Positions 3,220-11,785 of a DNA stretch of 60,922 nt are shown piece after piece. The stretch comes from Patescibacteria group bacterium (GTDB taxonomy: Bacteria; Patescibacteriota; Minisyncoccia; Phycocordibacterales; Phycocordibacteraceae). How positions within the stretch are numbered: the first letter of the stretch is position 1; each line of letters opens with the position of its first letter. The notes under the pieces are model-generated. The model did no database searches, was not told the origin of the DNA, and saw nothing but the letters and a program-made list of their open reading frames with translations. The position numbers were made by a program, and so were the translations under genes. The DNA lies in contig JAUPKX010000014.1 in NCBI GenBank assembly GCA_030837225.1, positions 1 through 60,922 on the forward strand. Reading direction: 5' to 3'.

Positions 3220-4395
3220 CTATGTAAGGGAAAGGTTCCCGTTCGCTCGCATCTGGTCTGGCTCAGTGAATTCCTTCTTAAGCGCTCGATAGTAGCCAGC
3301 GATACCGATCATAATCGCGTTATCAGTAGTGAAGCGCGGAGTAGGAATCCGAAGAGCTACTTCAGGATGCTCATTACTAATGTGCTCTGTAAAGAATTTG
3401 CGGATATGCGTGTCGGCAGAGACGCCACCACCGAGCACGAGCGTCTTGGCGCCTGTTGTATACAGAGCCTTCGATGATTTCGCGAATAGCACTTCACTCG
3501 TAGCATCTTCGAATGCATGGGAGATTTCTTCCTTCTCTGTTTCTGTTAAGGTGCGATCTTTTACCATGTAGAGCACTGCGGTTTTGAGCCCTGAGAAAGA
3601 AAAGTCACAGGTATCGTCACGCATCATGGGACGGGGTAGTGATGGTTTGATTGTGTTTCCACGCGCAATAGCTGCTGTGGCGAGTTTGGATATCTCCGGC
3701 CCTCCTGGATATGGGAGCCCAAGCATACGCGCTGCTTTGTCGAATGCTTCGCCAACTGCATCATCCTTTGTCTGGCCAATAAGACGGTACGAGAGCCACT
3801 GGTCCATGGAGACGAGTTCGGTGTGTCCTCCAGATATAAGGAGACCAAGAACCGGAAGGGACACGTCCTTGATTTCAAACGTGCCATCTTCGTTTGGCTT
3901 AGTTAGAGCAGATAGCAAATGACCTTCCATATGGTTCACGCCGATAAGTGGCTTTTCCCATACCATCGCTAACGCACGTGCGAGGTTAACCCCAACCCAA
4001 AGCGCAGGCTCAAGTCCCGGCCCATGCGTTACGGCTATCGCATCAATGGCGGGAGTCTCAGACTCGTCAAGAAACGCGAAGAGCGCCTCGGCGAGCTCTG
4101 GCTCGCGCGTAAGCAGTGTTCCTATCTCAGTCCGGATTGCGTCCGGAAGCAGCTGTCGGTCTTCATGCAAAAGCTCAGCCTCTTCAAGAGATGCTGCGAG
4201 TACCGGCACGAGATTCTTCGCGTGCTCGCGCTTCGCAACAGCAGGGAACACGCCGCCAAACTCGCGGTGTATATCAATTTGCGAGAGGAGGACGTTCCCG
4301 AGGATCTTGAATGAAGTGTTCTGTTCGTCCCCTTTGCATTCAAGAATAGAGATTGCGGTCTCGTCGCACGATGTTTCAATCGCGAGTATTTTCAT
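3220..4395 (-). CDS. tsaD: tRNA N6-adenosine threonylcarbamoyltransferase
   Basis: N-terminus MKILAIETSCDETA, HMEGH metal motif and GGVSAD motif typical of Kae1/TsaD. Confidence 0.9.
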   Translation of the reverse strand: MKILAIETSCDETAISILECKGDEQNTSFKILGNVLLSQIDIHREFGGVFPAVAKREHAKNLVPVLAASLEEAELLHEDRQLLPDAIRTEIGTLLTREPELAEALFAFLDESETPAIDAIAVTHGPGLEPALWVGVNLARALAMVWEKPLIGVNHMEGHLLSALTKPNEDGTFEIKDVSLPVLGLLISGGHTELVSMDQWLSYRLIGQTKDDAVGEAFDKAARMLGLPYPGGPEISKLATAAIARGNTIKPSLPRPMMRDDTCDFSFSGLKTAVLYMVKDRTLTETEKEEISHAFEDATSEVLFAKSSKALYTTGAKTLVLGGGVSADTHIRKFFTEHISNEHPEVALRIPTPRFTTDNAIMIGIAGYYRALKKEFTEPDQMRANGNLSLT

Positions 4396-5239
4396 CTTTT
4401 TCTACCAGTGTCCACGGCATCAAGCCATCTGCAGGAATGAGAAATCCGGACGAACTCTTGTGCCCATTGCCGCCGTACTTCTGTGCAATCTCAGACACAT
4501 CGATTGTGCCGTCTCCGCGGATCGAGACACCGAATCCCTTGGGGTGTGCAGCAACAACAAGCGAGAAGGGCCCCTGCTTCTTTGCGAGCATGTTGCCAAC
4601 AAGGGACTTCATTGGCTTGAAGGGGTGCGCGGTTGCGAAATAGACTTGGTGTCCTTCGAATTCAACGAGCTTCGCGTGTTCAACCGCGTGTTCTGCAAGT
4701 ATCTCGAAGTATTCTCCGTACGTACGTATCTTCTCAAGGAATGCTTCGCTGGTCTCAGGGTTGTCGAGCGTTGCTACAAGCTCGTCCCAGAGTTCAAATG
4801 TGTACGGTTTAACGGCAAGATACGAGACAATTGCGCGAGTGTCCGGGAGCTTGAAAAGGAAGAGGTCATCATCCTCAACATAGGAGAGGAGTTTCGGGGT
4901 TAGCTCTTCTGGGTGGAAATAGTGCCAGGCAAGTGTCGCACCCGAGCGATCGTTATCAAAGATTGAGCCTGGGAATGATTCGGTAACCTCCCGCACACCT
5001 TCGTGGTGGTCGAGAATCATGATGCTGTTCGCATCTTTTGCTATAGCATCCATCTGTTCTTTTTCGTACACGAAATCAACAAAGTAGAGATCAGCTCCTG
5101 TAACGTCAGGAATTGGGTCATTCCCGCGAGTAAGCGGAACATACTCCGCCGCATCGCCGAACTTCTTCCAGGCAGCATACGCGCCGCCGAACCCGTCCGG
5201 GCAACTGCCATGATAGAAGATGATGGTGCGGGTATTCAT
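4376..5239 (-). CDS. DHH/DHHA1 phosphoesterase (NrnA-like)
   Basis: ILDHHEG (DHH motif) and GGNGHKSSSGF (DHHA1 GGGH-like motif). Start set at MNTRTIIFYHG, with TATAAC 6 nt upstream. Overlaps the tsaD start by 20 nt. Confidence 0.75.
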   Translation of the reverse strand: MNTRTIIFYHGSCPDGFGGAYAAWKKFGDAAEYVPLTRGNDPIPDVTGADLYFVDFVYEKEQMDAIAKDANSIMILDHHEGVREVTESFPGSIFDNDRSGATLAWHYFHPEELTPKLLSYVEDDDLFLFKLPDTRAIVSYLAVKPYTFELWDELVATLDNPETSEAFLEKIRTYGEYFEILAEHAVEHAKLVEFEGHQVYFATAHPFKPMKSLVGNMLAKKQGPFSLVVAAHPKGFGVSIRGDGTIDVSEIAQKYGGNGHKSSSGFLIPADGLMPWTLVEKDENTRD

Positions 5240-7547: not shown

Positions 7548-7707
7548 CTCAATTGACCGCAAGGCTTGATAGGTACATACACCGCCTCTATTTCTAGGGA
7601 ACTTTCTGTGTACACCACCTCTTCGACTCCATCTTTTAAGGAGGCGTGTTCACTATCGCATAGACACTCATCTATAAATTTACTCAAACATAAGATACGA
7701 TAAGGCC

Positions 7708-9792
7708 ATGGAACTTTTCTCATACATTGGTCTGCATACTGCGTACCTACTTATTTTTTCGGTTACGCTTGGGCTTGGGCTTGGTGCATCTGCGTTAAGT
7801 CATATACTTTTTCTTTTCTCGGGAAATGATGGAAAGATATCGTACGACGAGTTCAAACTGTTAAAGATTTCACGCGTAGTGATATGGATCGCAATTCTTT
7901 TATACGGGTTTAGCGGTCTCGGTCTCTTTACGCTTGCGTACGAGTCAATGGTTGAGCTAGGAATCTTTTACGCCAGCATGACTGTCGCAATGATTCTCAT
8001 TGGGAATGAGATCGCATTTACCCTGCGTCACTTGCCGCGCGTGCGTGACATCCGTAAGGGAAGTATCGCTTTAGACGCATTCGTTCTCGAGAGCGGTGTA
8101 GTGTCGGCAGTTTCGTGGATATTTTTGATGTTCCACCATGTTATCTACCGAACCGATATTGGCTATTTTGCATTCATGGCGCTTTACGCAGTTGCTATTG
8201 CAGTGGGTATGCTTGCGACCTGGCTCATACGAAGATCAAGCGTTCGTTCGCATGACGCGTTGATATTGAAACGATCGGTTCTGGCGGCATTATTCTTTGC
8301 CCTCATATTCGCGGGAGCGTGGTATGCAAAGGCCGACCGCTTTATTAAGCCTGCAGACATTGGCAAGCGCATAGTTGCTGAAGTAGTAGGGCCGACCTAT
8401 ACGCTAGACGATGTCGCGCTTCATAATAATGATGAGGACTGCTGGCTCGCTATCGACAACAAAGTATTTAATGCGACCGAAGCATCACGCCTGCATCCTG
8501 CGATGTTCAATTGCGGCAAGGACGTGAGTGATAACTATCACAAAAATCACGGAGAGGGTATTAGGGATAAAATGATGAAGTATTACATTGGCGATCTTCG
8601 TAGCGGGAGTGGTCTAACAAGCGCAAGTGCTCAGTCTGAGAGGACTGAGGTGCTCAAGCCGTATCGTGAGCTGTACGTCGATGAAGGGTCATGGAACCCG
8701 CGCGAGCTTATGCTCGTTGTGGAGAAAGACGTAGAGAAGTTACTTGCCATCGATGGGACGACACACAAGGTTATCGGGCGTGTCCACGACGTTGGCTTTC
8801 AGCCTCACACTTCCGTCTACTCGTCGGATGCAAAATACATGTACATCATTTCTCGTGATGGCTGGCTTACAAAGATTGATCTTACGACTCTCGAGCCGGT
8901 TGTGTCGGTACTCGTTGGCGAGAATTCACGAGGTACTGCTATCACTGATAACGACAAGTACATTGCAATCGGCAATTATGAGCCAGGCAATCTTGTCATA
9001 CTCGATGCCCATTCGATGGAGATTTTAAAGACGATACCACTGACCATGGAAAAGGACGGTAAGCAAATTGAGTCTCGTGCGGGCGCGGTCGTCGAAGATG
9101 GAAACCGTATCATTGTGGCACTTAAGGATGGAACGAGCGTCTGGGCGATTGACACCGACCAGCCAGGATTTCCTGTGACACATAAGTTCTCGGATATTGG
9201 TGAGGGAAAACCAGCCCTTCATGATGCCTTCCTTACACCAAACGGTTCTCATTATATTGTTGCGTCGCAAGGGTCAAAGACGGTGTGGATTCTTGATGTG
9301 GCGACGATGAAACCGGTCGCGGAAGTAGAAACCGGCGAAACGCCGCACACGGGACCGGGTGCCGCGTGGGGTAATTACATTTATATACCGTCATTGGGAG
9401 AGGGTCTTATTACGGTTATCGACATAACCACATGGAAACCAGTGAAGTATATAAAGACTGGTGGACCAGGTCTTTTCGTACGAAGCTACAGCAAGAACCC
9501 AACCTACCCCTATGTGTGGGCTGACACCGCGTTCGGCGAACGCAAGGACGAGATTTACGTCATTGATGCGCGCATCAATGAAATTGTAAAAACTATTATC
9601 CCAGTTAAAGGAGAAAGCTCGTGGCACCCGGAATTTACTTATGACGGGAAGTTTGTGTACGTCGTCTCGCAATCTGCGAATGAAGTTGAGGTGTACGACG
9701 CATACACTTTCAATATCGTGAAGCGCATTAAGTCAGATACGCCGTCGGCGATATCTAATGTTGGCTTGCGTATTGAGGAGCCGGGCTTGTAG
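7708..9792 (+). CDS. membrane protein fused to a cytochrome b5-like domain and a cytochrome cd1 (NirS/NirN/NirF-type) beta-propeller
   Basis: About 210 aa with about 6 hydrophobic helices. Then YTLDDVALHNNDEDCWLAIDNKVFNATEASRLHPAMFNCGKDVSDNYHKNHG, which is b5-like. Then LLAIDGTTHKVIGRVHDVGFQPHTSVYSSDAKYMYIISRDGWLTKIDL...YIAIGNYEPGNLVILDAHSMEILKTI...TPHTGPGAAW, which is typical of the d1-heme propeller family. Confidence 0.7.
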   Translation: MELFSYIGLHTAYLLIFSVTLGLGLGASALSHILFLFSGNDGKISYDEFKLLKISRVVIWIAILLYGFSGLGLFTLAYESMVELGIFYASMTVAMILIGNEIAFTLRHLPRVRDIRKGSIALDAFVLESGVVSAVSWIFLMFHHVIYRTDIGYFAFMALYAVAIAVGMLATWLIRRSSVRSHDALILKRSVLAALFFALIFAGAWYAKADRFIKPADIGKRIVAEVVGPTYTLDDVALHNNDEDCWLAIDNKVFNATEASRLHPAMFNCGKDVSDNYHKNHGEGIRDKMMKYYIGDLRSGSGLTSASAQSERTEVLKPYRELYVDEGSWNPRELMLVVEKDVEKLLAIDGTTHKVIGRVHDVGFQPHTSVYSSDAKYMYIISRDGWLTKIDLTTLEPVVSVLVGENSRGTAITDNDKYIAIGNYEPGNLVILDAHSMEILKTIPLTMEKDGKQIESRAGAVVEDGNRIIVALKDGTSVWAIDTDQPGFPVTHKFSDIGEGKPALHDAFLTPNGSHYIVASQGSKTVWILDVATMKPVAEVETGETPHTGPGAAWGNYIYIPSLGEGLITVIDITTWKPVKYIKTGGPGLFVRSYSKNPTYPYVWADTAFGERKDEIYVIDARINEIVKTIIPVKGESSWHPEFTYDGKFVYVVSQSANEVEVYDAYTFNIVKRIKSDTPSAISNVGLRIEEPGL

Positions 9793-9816
9793 ACCGCAGC
9801 TCCATTTCGAACATGT

Positions 9817-9920
9817 TTCAATTTGTGACCCTAACGGGAAATAATTGGAACCGCTTCCTGCTACAGATACAAGCTTTCAATGTCTTGAAATAGTAAAACC
9901 CCAGACCGGATTGTCTGGGG
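9817..9920 (+). repeat. direct repeat copy A (micro-ORF plus hairpin module)
   Basis: caatttgtga/ccctaacgggaaataattggaaccgctt... matches 10626-10635 plus 10681-10774 at roughly 85 percent identity by hand alignment. Confidence 0.8.
9825..9893 (+). CDS. candidate micro-ORF copy A (22 aa from GTG 9825; 26 aa if from in-frame ATG 9813)
   Basis: (MFQF)VTLTGNNWNRFLLQIQAFNVLK, followed by hairpin 9899-9920 and TTTT. Paralogous to 10678..10749, and most differences between the two are synonymous. Confidence 0.3.
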   Translation: MTLTGNNWNRFLLQIQAFNVLK

Positions 9921-9938
9921 TTTTAGTGGGGAGATTGC

Positions 9939-10562
9939 TTACTCCTTGGATATATCGCCCTCGGTTCCTTGCTGAGTCTGATGTGTAGCGCTCGCATACT
10001 CGTAGACTTCGTGAACACTGGTCTGTATGAGTTTTACTAGAGCGTCAATATAGGCTTCGAGCGCGAGTATATTCTTCGCGTCGTTGTCATCCCAGCCCTC
10101 AGGGGTAAGGTCACCCTTCATATCAGCAAGATTCAAGTGGCTTGGGAATGGCAGATCCGCGTCATTAAGTGTGTCTATCCCTCTTTCAAAGCGAAGGCCG
10201 TCAGTATCCTTGTCTTCTTCAAGGGTAACTCTGAAATTAGATTCTATTTTATCTCCCATTTCCTCGACAAGGAACTTTCCATCCACATAGATACTTTCGT
10301 CAGTAGGTCCTTCAGGAAGGGGTTCCAGTTTGCAGAGAATCTTTACATCTTCTGCTAATTCTTCTGCACGCGCGTAGAGGGCGTCCCATGCTTCTTTTTG
10401 AGCAGGTTCCATGAGTTCTAAATCAGTCCAAAGAAATGGACCTCTCCCTGATGTAAGGTTCTTTTCAATCTTACTCCTAAGTTCTTGAGGGGTTGGGGAA
10501 GTTGCTTCCCATTTTGAAGTAGGAGCCTTTTCCGGGCTTGCAGACGAAGGTATTTTTTCCAT
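9939..10562 (-). CDS. highly acidic orphan protein (about 207 aa)
   Basis: Open frame rich in D and E (EDKDTDGLRFERGIDTLNDADLPF, EGWDDNDAKN). No family recognised. ATG chosen at 10562 (the track uses TTG at 10571). Reverse-strand TTGACA, 17 nt, ATGATT lies upstream. Confidence 0.6.
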   Translation of the reverse strand: MEKIPSSASPEKAPTSKWEATSPTPQELRSKIEKNLTSGRGPFLWTDLELMEPAQKEAWDALYARAEELAEDVKILCKLEPLPEGPTDESIYVDGKFLVEEMGDKIESNFRVTLEEDKDTDGLRFERGIDTLNDADLPFPSHLNLADMKGDLTPEGWDDNDAKNILALEAYIDALVKLIQTSVHEVYEYASATHQTQQGTEGDISKE

Positions 10563-10625
10563 ATGCTCCAATCATCCCTTATCCAGAGGCTTTGTCAAAG
10601 TCTTTTTTGGTAAACTCGCTACAGC

Positions 10626-10774
10626 CAATTTGTGATGAGACAAAAGGAAAGCCGCCCTTGCGGGCGGTTCCTGTCGCATGACCCTAACGGGAAATAATTG
10701 GAACCGCTTTCTGCTGCAGATACAGGCTTTCGATGTATTGGAACAATAAGGCTCCAGGCTGGATTGTCTGGAGC
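10626..10774 (+). repeat. direct repeat copy B, interrupted by a 45 nt hairpin-containing insertion (10636-10680)
   Basis: Same module as 9817-9920. The extra segment tgagacaaaaggaaagccgcccttgcgggcggttcctgtcgcatga lies between caatttgtga and ccctaacggg. Confidence 0.8.
10678..10749 (+). CDS. candidate micro-ORF copy B (23 aa)
   Basis: MTLTGNNWNRFLLQIQAFDVLEQ, followed by hairpin 10751-10774. Confidence 0.3.
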   Translation: MTLTGNNWNRFLLQIQAFDVLEQ

Positions 10775-10878
10775 TACGTCGCCAAAGCGCTTGCTTGGGG
10801 ATACTCGTCGAGTGCCTTAAACCAATGCGTCAACCAAAAACCCTCATGAGCGCCGTCTTAAGATGTTAATCTGATCGT

Positions 10879-11607
10879 ATGAAAATGAAGAAACTTTTAA
10901 AGACTGTGCGTCGGTCATTAGTCGTAGCATTTCTAGGGGTTTTGATTCTTCTCGTTCCCTATGTCCAGTTTCCTTTACTCTTTCTCAGTGGCCTTTTAAC
11001 GGCATATGATTTCCTATGGCCAGGTGAGACAATTTTTAGGTCCCCTCATGTATTAATTCATTTTTGGGGTTTTGGAATTCAATCGGCTAATGCCTTTGCA
11101 TTCTTCGGAAGCTTCATCTTCCTTCTCAGCTTGTTCGTGGAGAGTATAAGACATTGCTTAAAATATATTTTTGCAAGGTTGAGGGTTAAATTACCCACTT
11201 TCATCTCTTACGTATTAGGAATTTTGTTTGTCATCGGTCTCTCGACGCTGCTCCATAACATGAATTATCAGCTAATGAGCCAGTCTGAACTTGCTAGGAC
11301 AAATACGTCTACAGAAACTCATTTTACTTGTTCTGAAGAATTGGCTCTGGATGTCACACCTACTGGCGATATAGAGGTTTACGTAGCGATGAAAGATGAG
11401 TCAACCAACTCAATAGGGCATCAGACTTTGTCGATAGGAAATATTGATTTCGAGACAGCGGTCCTAAATCCTTACTATTTTCAAGAGAATACAAGTGGTA
11501 TGGCTAGTGCTTACGTAGATAAGATTCATTCCAGTATTAGATACGCAGTGGAAAACTGTAAGAATGTGCAAGGAAAAACGCTCCTGCAGAAATATCCCAT
11601 ACCATAG
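10879..11607 (+). CDS. multi-pass membrane protein, hypothetical (A+T-rich)
   Basis: 242 aa with several hydrophobic helices and no recognisable family. TGtTAATCT lies 6 nt upstream of the ATG. Confidence 0.6.
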   Translation: MKMKKLLKTVRRSLVVAFLGVLILLVPYVQFPLLFLSGLLTAYDFLWPGETIFRSPHVLIHFWGFGIQSANAFAFFGSFIFLLSLFVESIRHCLKYIFARLRVKLPTFISYVLGILFVIGLSTLLHNMNYQLMSQSELARTNTSTETHFTCSEELALDVTPTGDIEVYVAMKDESTNSIGHQTLSIGNIDFETAVLNPYYFQENTSGMASAYVDKIHSSIRYAVENCKNVQGKTLLQKYPIP

Positions 11608-11680
11608 GAAGAACGACTGTTATTGTCAGCATTCTTCATTTCTCGACGCGGCTTCGTCAAGGCTAATCGGGATTGCTAAC

Positions 11681-11708
11681 GCAAAACCGCCCATTCGGGC
11701 GGTTTTGC
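11681..11708. terminator. perfect 12 bp hairpin, bidirectional terminator
   Basis: gcaaaaccgccc attc gggcggttttgc. Confidence 0.7.
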
Positions 11709-11713
11709 TCGTG

Positions 11714-11785
11714 TGATCCCACGGGGAATCGAACCCCGATTTCCTGCGTGAAAGGCGGGCGTCCTAACCGTTAGACGATGGGACC
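11714..11785 (-). tRNA. tRNA-Glu (anticodon TTC), CCA not encoded
   Basis: The reverse complement is GGTCCCATCGTCTAACGGTTAGGACGCCCGCCTTTCACGCAGGAAATCGGGGTTCGATTCCCCGTGGGATCA. There is one C-A mismatch in the anticodon stem. Confidence 0.85.

What the first reader, a model, noticed from the sequence alone, without database searches (positions are those of the whole stretch)
9813..10774. Duplicated micro-ORF plus hairpin module flanking an acidic orphan gene, with a coding-like and structure-preserving substitution pattern
Two roughly 95-105 nt direct repeats (9817-9920 and 10626-10774) bracket the reverse-strand acidic gene 9939..10562.

Read on the plus strand, each repeat contains a tiny ORF: (MFQF)VTLTGNNWNRFLLQIQAFNVLK and MTLTGNNWNRFLLQIQAFDVLEQ. 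Across the 21 shared sense codons I count six differences. Four are synonymous third-position changes (TTC/TTT, CTA/CTG, CAA/CAG, GTC/GTA). Two are first-position charge changes (N/D, K/E). That is the pattern expected for a translated peptide under purifying selection.

The hairpin downstream of each ORF is also kept. It reads ccccagac-cggatt-gtctgggg in copy A and ctccaggc-tggatt-gtctggag in copy B. There is one compensatory double change (C-G to U-A) and one A-U to G-U change, and copy A is followed by TTTT. Copy B additionally carries a 45 nt hairpin-containing insertion exactly at the caatttgtga/ccctaacggg junction.

The peptide is too polar for a classic type I toxin. It could be a regulatory leader, a signalling or RiPP-like precursor, or part of a small mobile cassette boundary.
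Basis: seen in the sequence. Interest (0 to 1): 0.62.

Follow-up and report, generated by a model that had tools for sequence, protein, structure and literature searches.

The report
Detached integrase gene ends beside tRNA-Glu
The two repeats are most likely not a tiny gene: each looks like the cut-off last 22 codons plus terminator of a serine-integrase gene, left behind when small mobile elements inserted one after another into the neighbouring tRNA-Glu gene; this points to a bacterial integrase family that appears to carry its attachment site inside its own gene.

Summary
There is a 93-nt direct repeat at 86% identity, a conserved hairpin and a 45-46 nt insert in copy B.

The coding-like pattern is also real. 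dN/dS is about 0.06-0.3.

The ORF is probably not a gene of its own. Read antisense, its first 15 nt copy the 3' end of tRNA-Glu. The real tRNA-Glu lies 1-1.9 kb away in the same orientation.

In relatives the same peptide family always sits downstream of a tRNA gene (Glu, Arg or Ala). Its first codons co-vary with that tRNA's 3' end. Copies are often stacked in tandem with unrelated cargo genes between them.

In some genomes the peptide is fused in frame to the C-terminal region of a large serine recombinase (LSR). Full-length LSRs of that family read into the antisense strand of a tRNA gene. One complete 4.9-kb element at tRNA-Glu has the LSR at the tRNA end and the detached tail at the far end.

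My reading is that the window holds two stacked far-end (attR-type) scars around orphan cargo. Its genome has no serine recombinase. A W-type tail fused to an LSR was not found, so this link is inferred.

The parts
9813..9824 (-). Old chromosomal flank: former 3' trailer of tRNA-Glu (..CAAATTGAAAC on the minus strand)
   Evidence: Together with the core it matches the tRNA-Glu end plus trailer of a same-genus genome (G001, L005) over 24 nt at 96% identity, E = 6.7e-5 in that genome.
9825..9839 (-). Core A: displaced copy of the tRNA-Glu 3' end (minus strand TCCCGTTAGGGTCAC). It is the attR-type junction.
   Evidence: It resembles the tRNA-Glu ends of relatives, CCCCGTAGGGTCAC in L040/L008 and CCCGTTGGGGCCAC in L105. 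It is in the same orientation as the resident tRNA-Glu. In other genomes the equivalent core co-varies with the neighbouring tRNA.
9825..9893 (+). Tail A: inferred detached last 22 codons plus stop of a large-serine-recombinase gene (VTLTGNNWNRFLLQIQAFNVLK*).
   Evidence: Coding-type variation is shown. The peptide family appears. Fusion of related tails to LSR C-termini appears. The frame through the core (V-T-L-T-G) is the frame in which LSRs read through tRNA-Glu (V-A-P-T-G).
9894..9925 (.). Hairpin A: two-way intrinsic terminator (13-bp arms, 6-nt loop) shared by the tail and the convergent acidic gene
   Evidence: Six of the seven related copies examined (W_A, W_B, L034, L035, L038, L040, L064) keep a stem, with a changed stem sequence in L038 and L064; in L040 the stop is lost and the frame runs on through the hairpin.
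9939..10571 (-). Cargo 2: acidic orphan gene (207-210 aa)
   Evidence: It has no Pfam, PHROG or NCBIfam match. It finds only itself among 5.8 billion clusters. Relatives in other metagenomes do not cover it.
10571..10598 (-). Promoter-like site of the acidic gene (TTGACA-16-GATGAT)
   Evidence: 10 of 12 matches.
10636..10681 (-). 45-46 nt 'insert' of copy B. On the minus strand it is a terminator hairpin, CCGCCCGCAAGGGCGG plus a T-run. I read it as the former trailer/terminator of tRNA-Glu, displaced together with core B.
   Evidence: One search lists it as a terminator. It resembles the terminator behind the resident tRNA-Glu (CCGCCCGAATGGGCGG) and the one behind tRNA-Glu in G020 (CCGCCCGAGTGGGCGG).
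10678..10749 (+). Core B plus tail B: second detached integrase-gene end (MTLTGNNWNRFLLQIQAFDVLEQ*)
   Evidence: dN/dS against tail A is 0.18.
10751..10774 (.). Hairpin B (9-bp stem, loop TGGATT)
   Evidence: It shows compensatory changes relative to hairpin A.
10879..11607 (+). Cargo 1: 242-aa membrane-protein-like orphan gene
   Evidence: Relatives in runs X6 and X7 do not cover it.
11680..11712 (-). Present trailer and terminator of tRNA-Glu
11713..11785 (-). tRNA-Glu(ttc): the integration target (attL side)

Best explanation
[quoted passage not shown] The integrase of this element family is a large serine recombinase (LSR). By my reading its attachment site lies inside the last part of its own coding sequence.

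**How integration would split the gene.** The body of the integrase gene stays next to the tRNA. It then reads on into the antisense strand of the tRNA, which supplies a substitute C-terminal tail and stop codon. The original last 22-40 codons, together with the gene's terminator hairpin, are left at the far end. There they sit behind a displaced copy of the tRNA 3' end. That detached tail is the 'micro-ORF'.

**Why it looks coding.** The sequence evolved as part of a real protein gene, so its substitution pattern is coding-like. It need not be translated where it now lies.

**History of this window.** Two such integrations happened in turn.
1. The older element brought tail A and the acidic gene.
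2. The younger element (tail B and the 242-aa gene) entered the tRNA again. It pushed the older one outward, together with the old tRNA trailer terminator. That terminator is the '45-nt insert'.

The integrase bodies have since been lost. The alternative is that the cassettes never carried an integrase and were moved in trans. Today the two copies are inert boundaries of a strain-specific islet.

**Shown**
- The repeat and its coding-type variation.
- The tRNA-end copy, and its co-variation with the neighbouring tRNA in relatives.
- Tandem stacking with unrelated cargo.
- LSR-tail fusions, and LSRs that read into tRNA genes.
- One complete element in a relative.

**Inferred**
- That the window's short W-type tails come from the same kind of LSR gene.
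- The order of the two events.
- The loss of the integrase genes.
For: 1. **The repeat ends in a tRNA-Glu 3'-end copy.**
   - The minus strand of both copies ends in TCCCGTTAGGGTCA, like tRNA-Glu 3' ends of relatives.
   - Copy A also keeps the trailer CAAATTGAAA found behind tRNA-Glu in a same-genus genome.
2. **The element is always downstream of tRNA-Glu.**
   - It lies 0.4-1.9 kb downstream and antisense to the tRNA in the window, L034, L040, L038 and L037.
   - Unrelated cargo genes lie between.
3. **Coding signal.**
   - 8 of 12 variable codons are purely synonymous in this frame, against 1 of 13 and 0 of 11 in the other two.
   - Median dN/dS is about 0.17.
4. **A peptide family exists.**
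   - A peptide profile finds 58 clusters of short ORF calls. The motif is always the last 30-40 residues, and no long protein carries it.
   - It is patchy: about 10 of 400 genomes in the class and in the phylum.
5. **The first codons co-vary with the neighbouring tRNA's 3' end**.
   - tRNA-Glu variants: L042, L044, L070, L071.
   - tRNA-Arg: L068, L104.
   - tRNA-Ala: L088, where 19 of 21 nt match, including CCA and the trailer.
6. **Tandem stacks** occur in L037, L035, L071, L076, G268, G730 and L104.
7. **Fusion to LSR C-termini.**
   - In P0058, P0024, P0037 and P0039 the tail is fused in frame to a region (..FPxxxEYxxxxFxTAxLxxIY..).
   - A profile of that region (A5) hits ORFs of 513-575 aa. 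In G1085 the hit lies in the ORF that carries the Resolvase domain.
8. **LSRs of this family read into tRNA genes.**
   - In 10 of 12 such LSR loci an antisense tRNA directly abuts the motif: Glu x3, Ala x4, Arg x2, Met x1.
   - In the frames I could read, the ORF ends in tRNA-antisense residues such as VAPTGFEPVF.
9. **A complete element (L106).**
   - Its order is core plus tail (136-237), cargo, LSR (3521-5047), then tRNA-Glu (5009-5084).
   - Both junctions start GTAGCCC in the same frame.
   - L104 shows the same layout at tRNA-Arg, with a second tail further out.
10. **No recombinase in the cassettes.** The window's genome has no Resolvase-domain gene and a single tyrosine recombinase on another contig.
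11. **The cargo is strain-specific** and the acidic gene is an orphan.
Against: - **No direct link for the W-type tail.** No LSR fused to a tail of the window's own short type (TLTGNNWNRF...) was found. Only six copies of that type are known, all detached.
- **Modest sequence similarity.** W-type tails score 8.8-9.6 bits against a profile of the common type. About 0.3% of shuffles reach that. The link leans on position, frame and context, and on intermediates: L042 scores 13.6 bits, and P0004 shares MTLISENWN with it.
- **No free or empty form seen.** No excised circle, empty site or attP junction was observed. Only assembler contigs were available, not reads.
- **No unsplit full-length gene.** None of 1.84 billion representatives is a full-length LSR with the helical tail. 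One possible reason is clustering at 50% identity.
- **Both window copies are intact ORFs with GTG/ATG at the boundary.** That is also what an independent micro-gene would show.
- **The loss of the integrase bodies is not explained.** How they went while cargo and tails stayed is unknown.
Confidence: 0.72

Rival explanations
1. The cassettes are small integrase-less mobilisable units (cargo plus attachment site plus tail). An LSR supplied in trans by a complete element, phage or plasmid still moves them. The tail sequence would then be kept because it is the integrase's binding half-site. This rivals the 'decayed remnant' part of the best explanation only.
For: - Units are small and uniform, at 0.7-1.2 kb in the window, L037, L035 and L076.
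- They have their own promoters directly behind the core.
- The first 31 nt of the tail are invariant in all six W-type copies.
- Arrays with several units but without an integrase are common.
Against: - The invariance of the first 31 nt follows partly from how the copies were found, by exact 20-22-nt words.
- No circular form or empty site was seen.
- The genome has no serine recombinase.
- L076 and L077 show 5'-truncated LSR fragments, so decay by deletion does occur.
Confidence: 0.25
2. The micro-ORF is an independent, translated 22-45 aa helical protein gene. It is carried by the cassettes as their only conserved gene, for example as a recombination-directionality or accessory factor.
For: - Purifying selection is seen.
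- The ORF is intact in nearly all copies.
- GTG or ATG lies at the boundary in most Glu-type copies.
- AlphaFold2 gives one confident long helix, pLDDT 90.
Against: - The boundary codon is dictated by the tRNA end. It is not a start codon in L106 (GTA), L068 (TAC), L070 (GTA) or L066 (GCA).
- I see no Shine-Dalgarno sequence by eye, and the scan lists no promoter site upstream of either copy.
- A terminator hairpin directly precedes the ORF in copy B, L040 and L035.
- The peptide continues LSR ORFs in frame.
Confidence: 0.1
3. The repeat is a structured non-coding RNA, or a tRNA-like or CRISPR-type repeat, on one of the two strands.
For: - Both copies fold better than shuffles, with z = -3.7 and -2.4.
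- There is a weak resemblance to a CRISPR repeat model and to a T-loop (my reading).
Against: - No Rfam family reaches threshold; the best E-value is 2.7.
- ARAGORN finds no tRNA there.
- The T-arm cannot pair, and the distance from TTCCAA to the 3' end is 25 nt against 20 in real tRNAs.
- Variation follows codon phase, not pairing.
- Distant relatives keep the peptide, not the nucleotide sequence.
Confidence: 0.03

Closest known systems
Genomic islands integrated in tRNA genes, with stacked integrations separated by partial tRNA copies (Islander-type islands; tycheposon arrays in Prochlorococcus, bioRxiv 10.1101/2020.12.28.424599; accretion of integrase-less cis-mobilisable elements, from my own knowledge)
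   Same: - An intact tRNA gene lies at one end and a displaced copy of its 3' end at the other.
- New arrivals push older ones outward.
- There are integrase-less remnants.
- Cargo is strain-specific.
   Different: - Those systems use tyrosine recombinases encoded wholly inside the element.
- Here the recombinase is a large serine recombinase whose ORF crosses the attachment site.
- The displaced tRNA fragment therefore always carries a conserved piece of coding sequence.
SSV-type 'suicidal' integrases of archaeal viruses and plasmids (review PMC8371274)
   Same: The attachment site, a copy of part of a tRNA gene, lies inside the integrase's own gene. Integration splits that gene into two parts at the two ends of the element.
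   Different: - Those are tyrosine recombinases, and the review calls them exclusive to Archaea.
- Their gene is cut so that the enzyme is broken.
- Here the hosts are bacteria (Patescibacteria) and the enzyme is a serine recombinase.
- Only the last 22-40 codons are detached. They are replaced by residues encoded on the antisense strand of the tRNA.
Phage and ICE large serine integrases (phiC31, Bxb1, A118, CcrAB; from my own knowledge)
   Same: The domain plan is the same, Resolvase plus Recombinase/zinc ribbon. The gene lies at the edge of the element next to the attachment site.
   Different: Known examples have attP outside the gene and mostly target protein-coding genes. I know of no report of LSR ORFs that run into tRNA genes, and the paper library returned none.
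Integron gene-cassette arrays
   Same: Both are tandem arrays of small units of one or two genes, each ending in a conserved recombination-site module.
   Different: - There is no IntI next to the array.
- The site is a tRNA-end copy plus a coding remnant, not an attC hairpin.
- Cassettes have their own promoters and mixed orientation.

Membership tests
tRNA-gene-integrated genomic island (Islander-type) | Intact target tRNA gene at one end | tested here: met
   tRNA-Glu(ttc) at 11713-11785, 58.9 bits.
tRNA-gene-integrated genomic island (Islander-type) | Displaced fragment of the tRNA 3' end as a direct repeat at the far end | tested here: met
   Cores at 9825-9839 and 10678-10692 lie in the same orientation as the tRNA. 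They match tRNA-Glu ends of relatives, and copy A also matches the trailer. Co-variation with the neighbouring tRNA is seen in other genomes.
tRNA-gene-integrated genomic island (Islander-type) | Integrase gene inside the island | tested here: not met
   There is none between 9825 and 11712. The genome has no Resolvase-domain gene and one tyrosine recombinase on contig 12. The feature is met in relatives L106 and L104.
tRNA-gene-integrated genomic island (Islander-type) | Content variable between close relatives | tested here: met
   Relatives in other metagenomes cover 7700-9895 and the tRNAs but not 9896-11705. Close relative L064 has different cargo.
Large serine recombinase gene (3' fragment of) | Tail continues an ORF with Resolvase and Recombinase/zinc-ribbon domains, in frame | tested here: inconclusive
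   This is shown for the common tail type. P0058, P0024, P0037 and P0039 are fusions to LSR C-terminal fragments. Profile A5 of that fused LSR C-terminal region hits 513-575 aa LSR ORFs. It is not shown for the window's own short tail type. That link rests on frame, position and 8.8-9.6 bits of similarity.
Large serine recombinase gene (3' fragment of) | Catalytic domains present in the window | tested here: not met
   Neither PF00239 nor profile A5 has a match in the genome. Only the last 22-23 codons remain.
SSV-type 'suicidal' integrase | Attachment site inside the integrase's own gene, which is split on integration | tested here: met
   This holds for relatives. In L106 and L104 the LSR ORF crosses the tRNA junction and its tail lies at the far end, in the same frame.
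SSV-type 'suicidal' integrase | Tyrosine recombinase fold; archaeal host | tested here: not met
   The enzymes have Resolvase-type (serine) domains. The hosts are Parcubacteria/Paceibacterota.
Independent small-protein gene (leader peptide, RiPP precursor, type I toxin) | Own start codon, ribosome-binding site and promoter, conserved across copies | tested here: not met
   No promoter site is listed upstream and none is visible by eye. The boundary codon is GTA, TAC or GCA in several relatives. Upstream sequence is unrelated between copies.
Integron cassette array | IntI-type integrase and attI next to the array; attC sites | tested here: not met
   The only tyrosine recombinase is on another contig. 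The repeated module is a tRNA-end copy plus coding remnant.
Known RNA families (Rfam), tRNA | Match to a covariance model | tested here: not met

The most novel reading that the evidence does not exclude
The tail swap is a built-in switch. Only the circular, excised element encodes the full integrase with its ~30-residue helical tail. Once integrated, the enzyme carries a tRNA-antisense-encoded tail instead, with the stop codon coming from the anticodon loop. Its activity or directionality would then depend on the element's state. The detached tails stacked behind tRNA genes could be re-joined to an upstream integrase body by the next integration. This would be a bacterial, serine-recombinase counterpart of the archaeal 'suicidal' integrases, and a new way to control integration against excision without a separate directionality factor.
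Probability: 0.25. Interest if true: 0.8.

Novelty: new variant of a known kind. Interest (0 to 1): 0.6.

Why it matters
**For this genome.** The finding explains an odd 'duplicated micro-ORF' as two boundaries of a small flexible islet at tRNA-Glu. It also shows that a clean dN/dS signal does not prove that an ORF is a gene where it lies.

**More generally.** It points to a family of large serine recombinases in Patescibacteria with three unusual features.
- They target tRNA genes.
- Their own ORF spans the attachment site.
- Integration exchanges the protein's C-terminal tail and leaves recognisable 'tail scars' in arrays.

The review I read (PMC8371274) describes such self-splitting integrases only for archaeal tyrosine recombinases.

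**Practical uses.**
- Serine integrases are widely used genome-engineering tools, so a natural tail-dependent switch and tRNA-directed specificity would be of practical interest.
- The tail scars give a simple marker for mapping integration hot spots and gene flow in these reduced, uncultured bacteria.

Tried and rejected
- **CRISPR repeat or tracrRNA.** The repeat begins GTTTCAAT..ATTGGAAC. The Rfam CRISPR-DR6 match has E = 3.5. The genome holds only two copies, 853 nt apart. Rejected.
- **tRNA-like RNA or decayed full tRNA-Glu pseudogene on the minus strand.** ARAGORN finds nothing. The T-stem cannot pair, and the spacing is 25 nt against 20. Only the last ~15 nt are tRNA-derived. Rejected.
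- **Ribbon-helix-helix fold for the peptide** (suggested by the G-x-S/D turn). AlphaFold2 gives one continuous helix, and there are no PDB sequence relatives. Not supported.
- **Tyrosine-integrase att scars.** Genomes with arrays have as a rule one Xer-like tyrosine recombinase, far from the array. Nothing supports this.
- **Longer protein that begins with the peptide.** None was found among 1.84 billion representatives.
- **Viral contigs.** The scan with P0058 found nothing.
- **Homologs of the LSR-like fragment.** The word-based search found only the query itself. The six-frame profile search then succeeded.
- **Far end of the G931 element (L105).** Not found within 10 kb.
- **More W-type copies.** A degenerate codon pattern returned the same two genomes.
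- **Reads.** Only assembler contigs were on hand, so excision or empty sites could not be tested.
- **Earlier notes of this scan.** They added nothing on the element.
Full report
**1.

- The repeat 9826-9918 / 10679-10771 is 93 nt at 86% identity.
- A 28-nt word from it occurs twice in the window, against none in 100 shuffles.
- The whole 667-kb, 16-contig genome has only these two copies.
- The two small ORFs, the two hairpins with compensatory changes, the TTTT after copy A and the 45-46 nt insert in copy B are all as described.
- No Rfam family and no tRNA model matches the element.

**2. First lead: the other strand**

- A DNA search of 60 relatives gave no full copy. It gave a series of short hits to one part of the query. 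All of them are 3' ends of tRNA-Glu genes.
- Read on the minus strand, both copies end in ..TTCCCGTTAGGGTCA.
- In copy A the next bases, CAAATTGAAA, are the same as those behind tRNA-Glu in a same-genus genome. That match covers 24 nt at 96% identity, with E = 6.7e-5.
- The resident tRNA-Glu(ttc) lies at 11713-11785 in the same orientation. A terminator hairpin, CCGCCCGAATGGGCGG, follows it.
- The 'insert' of copy B holds a look-alike hairpin, CCGCCCGCAAGGGCGG, which scores as a minus-strand terminator.

**3. More copies, always in the same setting**

- Exact-word scans found the element in other Parcubacteria/Paceibacterota contigs: L033/L040, L034, L035 and L038. L036/L037 is a diverged relative.
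- Wherever enough sequence is available, the element lies 0.4-1.9 kb downstream of tRNA-Glu and antisense to it.
- tRNA-Ser(cga) sits on the other side of the tRNA.
- Unrelated genes fill the space between element and tRNA.
- In L034, L038 and L040 a TTGACT..TATAAT-type promoter starts directly behind the tRNA end.

**4. The coding signal is real**

- Six close copies were compared, outside the words used to find them.
The other two frames give 1 of 13 and 0 of 11.
- Variable sites fall 5/3/10 on codon positions 1/2/3.
- Pairwise dN/dS is 0.06-0.28 in 14 of 15 pairs. Copy A against copy B gives 0.18.
- A sequence-only model found weak hits in the order. These keep the peptide but not the DNA, for example MTLISENWNLLLKQMKVFKVLFS and VTQVGQNWNQIVSELNWW....
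- A peptide profile found 58 clusters among 1.84 billion representatives.
  - Almost all are ORF calls of 29-138 aa in which the motif is the last 30-40 residues.
  - The consensus is (M/V)TQVGQNWNQLVxELNxWxxFGRxLE.
  - The parts upstream of the motif are unrelated to each other.
  - No long protein carries the motif.
- No Pfam, PHROG, NCBIfam or PDB relative exists.
- AlphaFold2 predicts one long helix, pLDDT 90.

**5. The start of the ORF is a copy of the neighbouring tRNA's 3' end**

- The family is patchy: about 10 of 400 genomes in both the class and the phylum samples.
- By my tally, 15 of about 28 loci have an antisense tRNA within 1.5 kb downstream. These are mostly tRNA-Glu, with two Arg and two Ala. 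My rough estimate of the chance expectation is about 5%.
- The antisense of the first codons follows that tRNA's 3' end:

| Locus | Neighbouring tRNA end | Element core |
|---|---|---|
| L042 | ATTAGGGTCAT | ATTAGGGTCAT |
| L068 (tRNA-Arg) | GGGGTAC\|a | GGGGTAC\|a |
| L070 | GGGCTAC | GGGCTAC |
| L071 | TCCCCTTGGGACTATGGAT | two tandem elements, TCCCCTTAGTTCTATGGAT and TCCCCTTGGCTCCATGGAT |
| L088 (tRNA-Ala) | GGTCCACCAAGTCAAACTCGG | GGTCCACCAAGTCAGACTTGG |

- This is the signature of attachment-site repeats, with attL in the tRNA and attR at the far end.
- Tandem stacks of tails with different cargo between them occur in L037, L035, L071, L076 (three tails), G268, G730 and L104.

**6. What the tail belongs to**

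- In four clusters (P0058, P0024, P0037, P0039) the ORF runs into the tail in frame from a conserved stretch..FPxNxEYxxPGFKTAELAPIYxxKS-(10)-|VTQVGQNWNQL.
- A profile of that stretch (A5) hit 18 of 351 genomes of the class, mostly inside open frames of 513-575 aa.
  - In G1085 the hit lies in the very ORF that carries the Resolvase domain.
  - Two such ORFs have Resolvase plus Recombinase or zinc-ribbon domains.
  - The stretch is therefore the C-terminal region of large serine recombinases.
- In these full-length genes the ORF does not stop after the stretch. It reads on into the antisense strand of a tRNA gene.
  - An example is ..EKTRL|VAPTGFEPVFPH*, followed by the reverse complement of the 5' half of tRNA-Glu.
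  - An antisense tRNA abuts the motif in 10 of 12 loci: Glu x3, Ala x4, Arg x2, Met x1.
- The distance from the conserved Y to the boundary V is 13 residues both in fused tails and in integrated LSRs. The frame through the core is also the same.

**7. Complete examples**

- **L106 (G836).** This is a 4.9-kb element. Its parts, in order:
  - core plus tail at 136-237 (VALVGERWNQVIIEVKRWSEFAKSLHLANLTA*);
  - four cargo ORFs;
  - the LSR at 3521-5047, ending ..NKSHLVAPTGFEPVFAA*;
  - tRNA-Glu at 5009-5084, overlapped by the last 39 nt of the LSR ORF.
- Its two junctions read ..TTC|GTAGCCCTAGTGGGA.. and ..TTA|GTAGCCCCGACGGGA...
- The boundary codon there is GTA, so the detached tail has no start codon.
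- **L104 (G1085).** The same layout occurs at tRNA-Arg.
  - It has a 569-aa LSR.
  - Two tails lie about 8 and 13 kb out.
  - Both begin V-S-, like the LSR's passage through the tRNA.

**8. Reading of the window**

- Cores A and B are displaced tRNA-Glu ends.
- Tails A and B are the detached last 22-23 codons of two related LSR genes. They are 14% apart, and the divergence has coding character. This fits two separate arrivals rather than duplication in place.
- The hairpins are the terminators behind those genes, shared with the convergent cargo gene.
- The order of events follows from copy B. Core B is followed by a tRNA-trailer-type terminator and then by CACAAATTGG and the acidic gene's promoter. 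This is what lay behind tRNA-Glu before the second element entered.
- The genome has no serine recombinase and no A5 match.
- The acidic gene finds only itself in 5.8 billion clusters.
- Relatives in other metagenomes cover the cytochrome-d1 gene, tail A and the tRNAs, but not 9896-11705.

**9. Weak points**

- The link between the window's short tail type and LSR genes is indirect.
  - Sequence similarity to the common type is 8.8-9.6 bits, reached by about 0.3% of shuffles.
  - Intermediates help. L042 scores 13.6 bits, and P0004 combines L042's MTLISENWN with the common body.
  - Position, frame and context are identical. Even so, no W-type tail fused to an LSR was found.
- No free circle, empty site or full-length unsplit LSR gene was seen.
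- How the integrase bodies were lost, or whether the cassettes are integrase-less satellites moved in trans, is open.

**10. Comparison and novelty**

- Stacked integrations at tRNA genes separated by partial tRNA copies are known. Tycheposons are an example.
- Attachment sites inside the integrase gene are also known, but for archaeal tyrosine recombinases. The review states these are exclusive to Archaea.
- I found no report of serine recombinases whose ORF crosses a tRNA attachment site. The library returned nothing for LSR plus tRNA plus Patescibacteria.
- I therefore rate the system a new variant of a known kind.
- The window's own feature is its fossil: ordinary in effect, but informative.

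Noticed in passing
window 7549-9824 (gene 7708-9792): The 694-aa protein combines a membrane domain, cytochrome b5 and a cytochrome-d1 propeller (Pfam). It is missing in a close relative (L064, 83-90% identical up to 7548), where a tail-type micro-ORF follows directly. No tail remnant is visible at 7549-7707 in the window. The gene may itself belong to the flexible region.
   Followed up: partly
L105 8953-8993; L106 5009-5047: In LSR genes integrated at tRNA-Glu, the stop codon TGA is the antisense of the tRNA's anticodon loop (..TTTCA..). The last 12 residues, VAPTGFEPVF.., are the antisense of the T-arm.
   Followed up: partly
window 9827-10708, run X1: The assembler's unitigs break exactly at the shared 29-nt word. 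The middle unitig (acidic-gene unit) has depth 13.2, against 15.0 and 15.1 for its neighbours. This is a faint hint that part of the population lacks this unit. It could not be tested without reads.
   Followed up: no
window 9852->11712 and 9876->11679, run X7: Contigs of relatives in another freshwater metagenome join the start of tail A almost directly to tRNA-Glu or to its terminator. The sides are only 30-31 nt, so the evidence is weak. These may be minimal or empty-like versions of the locus.
   Followed up: no
L076 7280-9882 and L069 254-1157: L076 holds three tails in a row. Its cargo pair (an HTH_3 protein plus a 161-aa protein) recurs in L069 next to a tail, in the opposite orientation relative to it.
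   Followed up: no
L096 (G1005:C29): One 575-aa LSR of the same family continues after the conserved C-terminal stretch into a tail that is neither tRNA-antisense nor the helical tail. No tRNA is nearby. It may be a different target or state.
   Followed up: no
G062 (bin of L034): This bin shows 8 matches to the tyrosine-recombinase family on many short contigs. The other array-bearing genomes have one or two. The bin may be mixed or rich in mobile elements.
   Followed up: no
L034 1326-1979 and L064 1736-2368: The cargo genes next to the tail in these two genomes are distantly related (30% identity over 117 aa, E = 6e-7), although their tails are of different subtypes.
   Followed up: no
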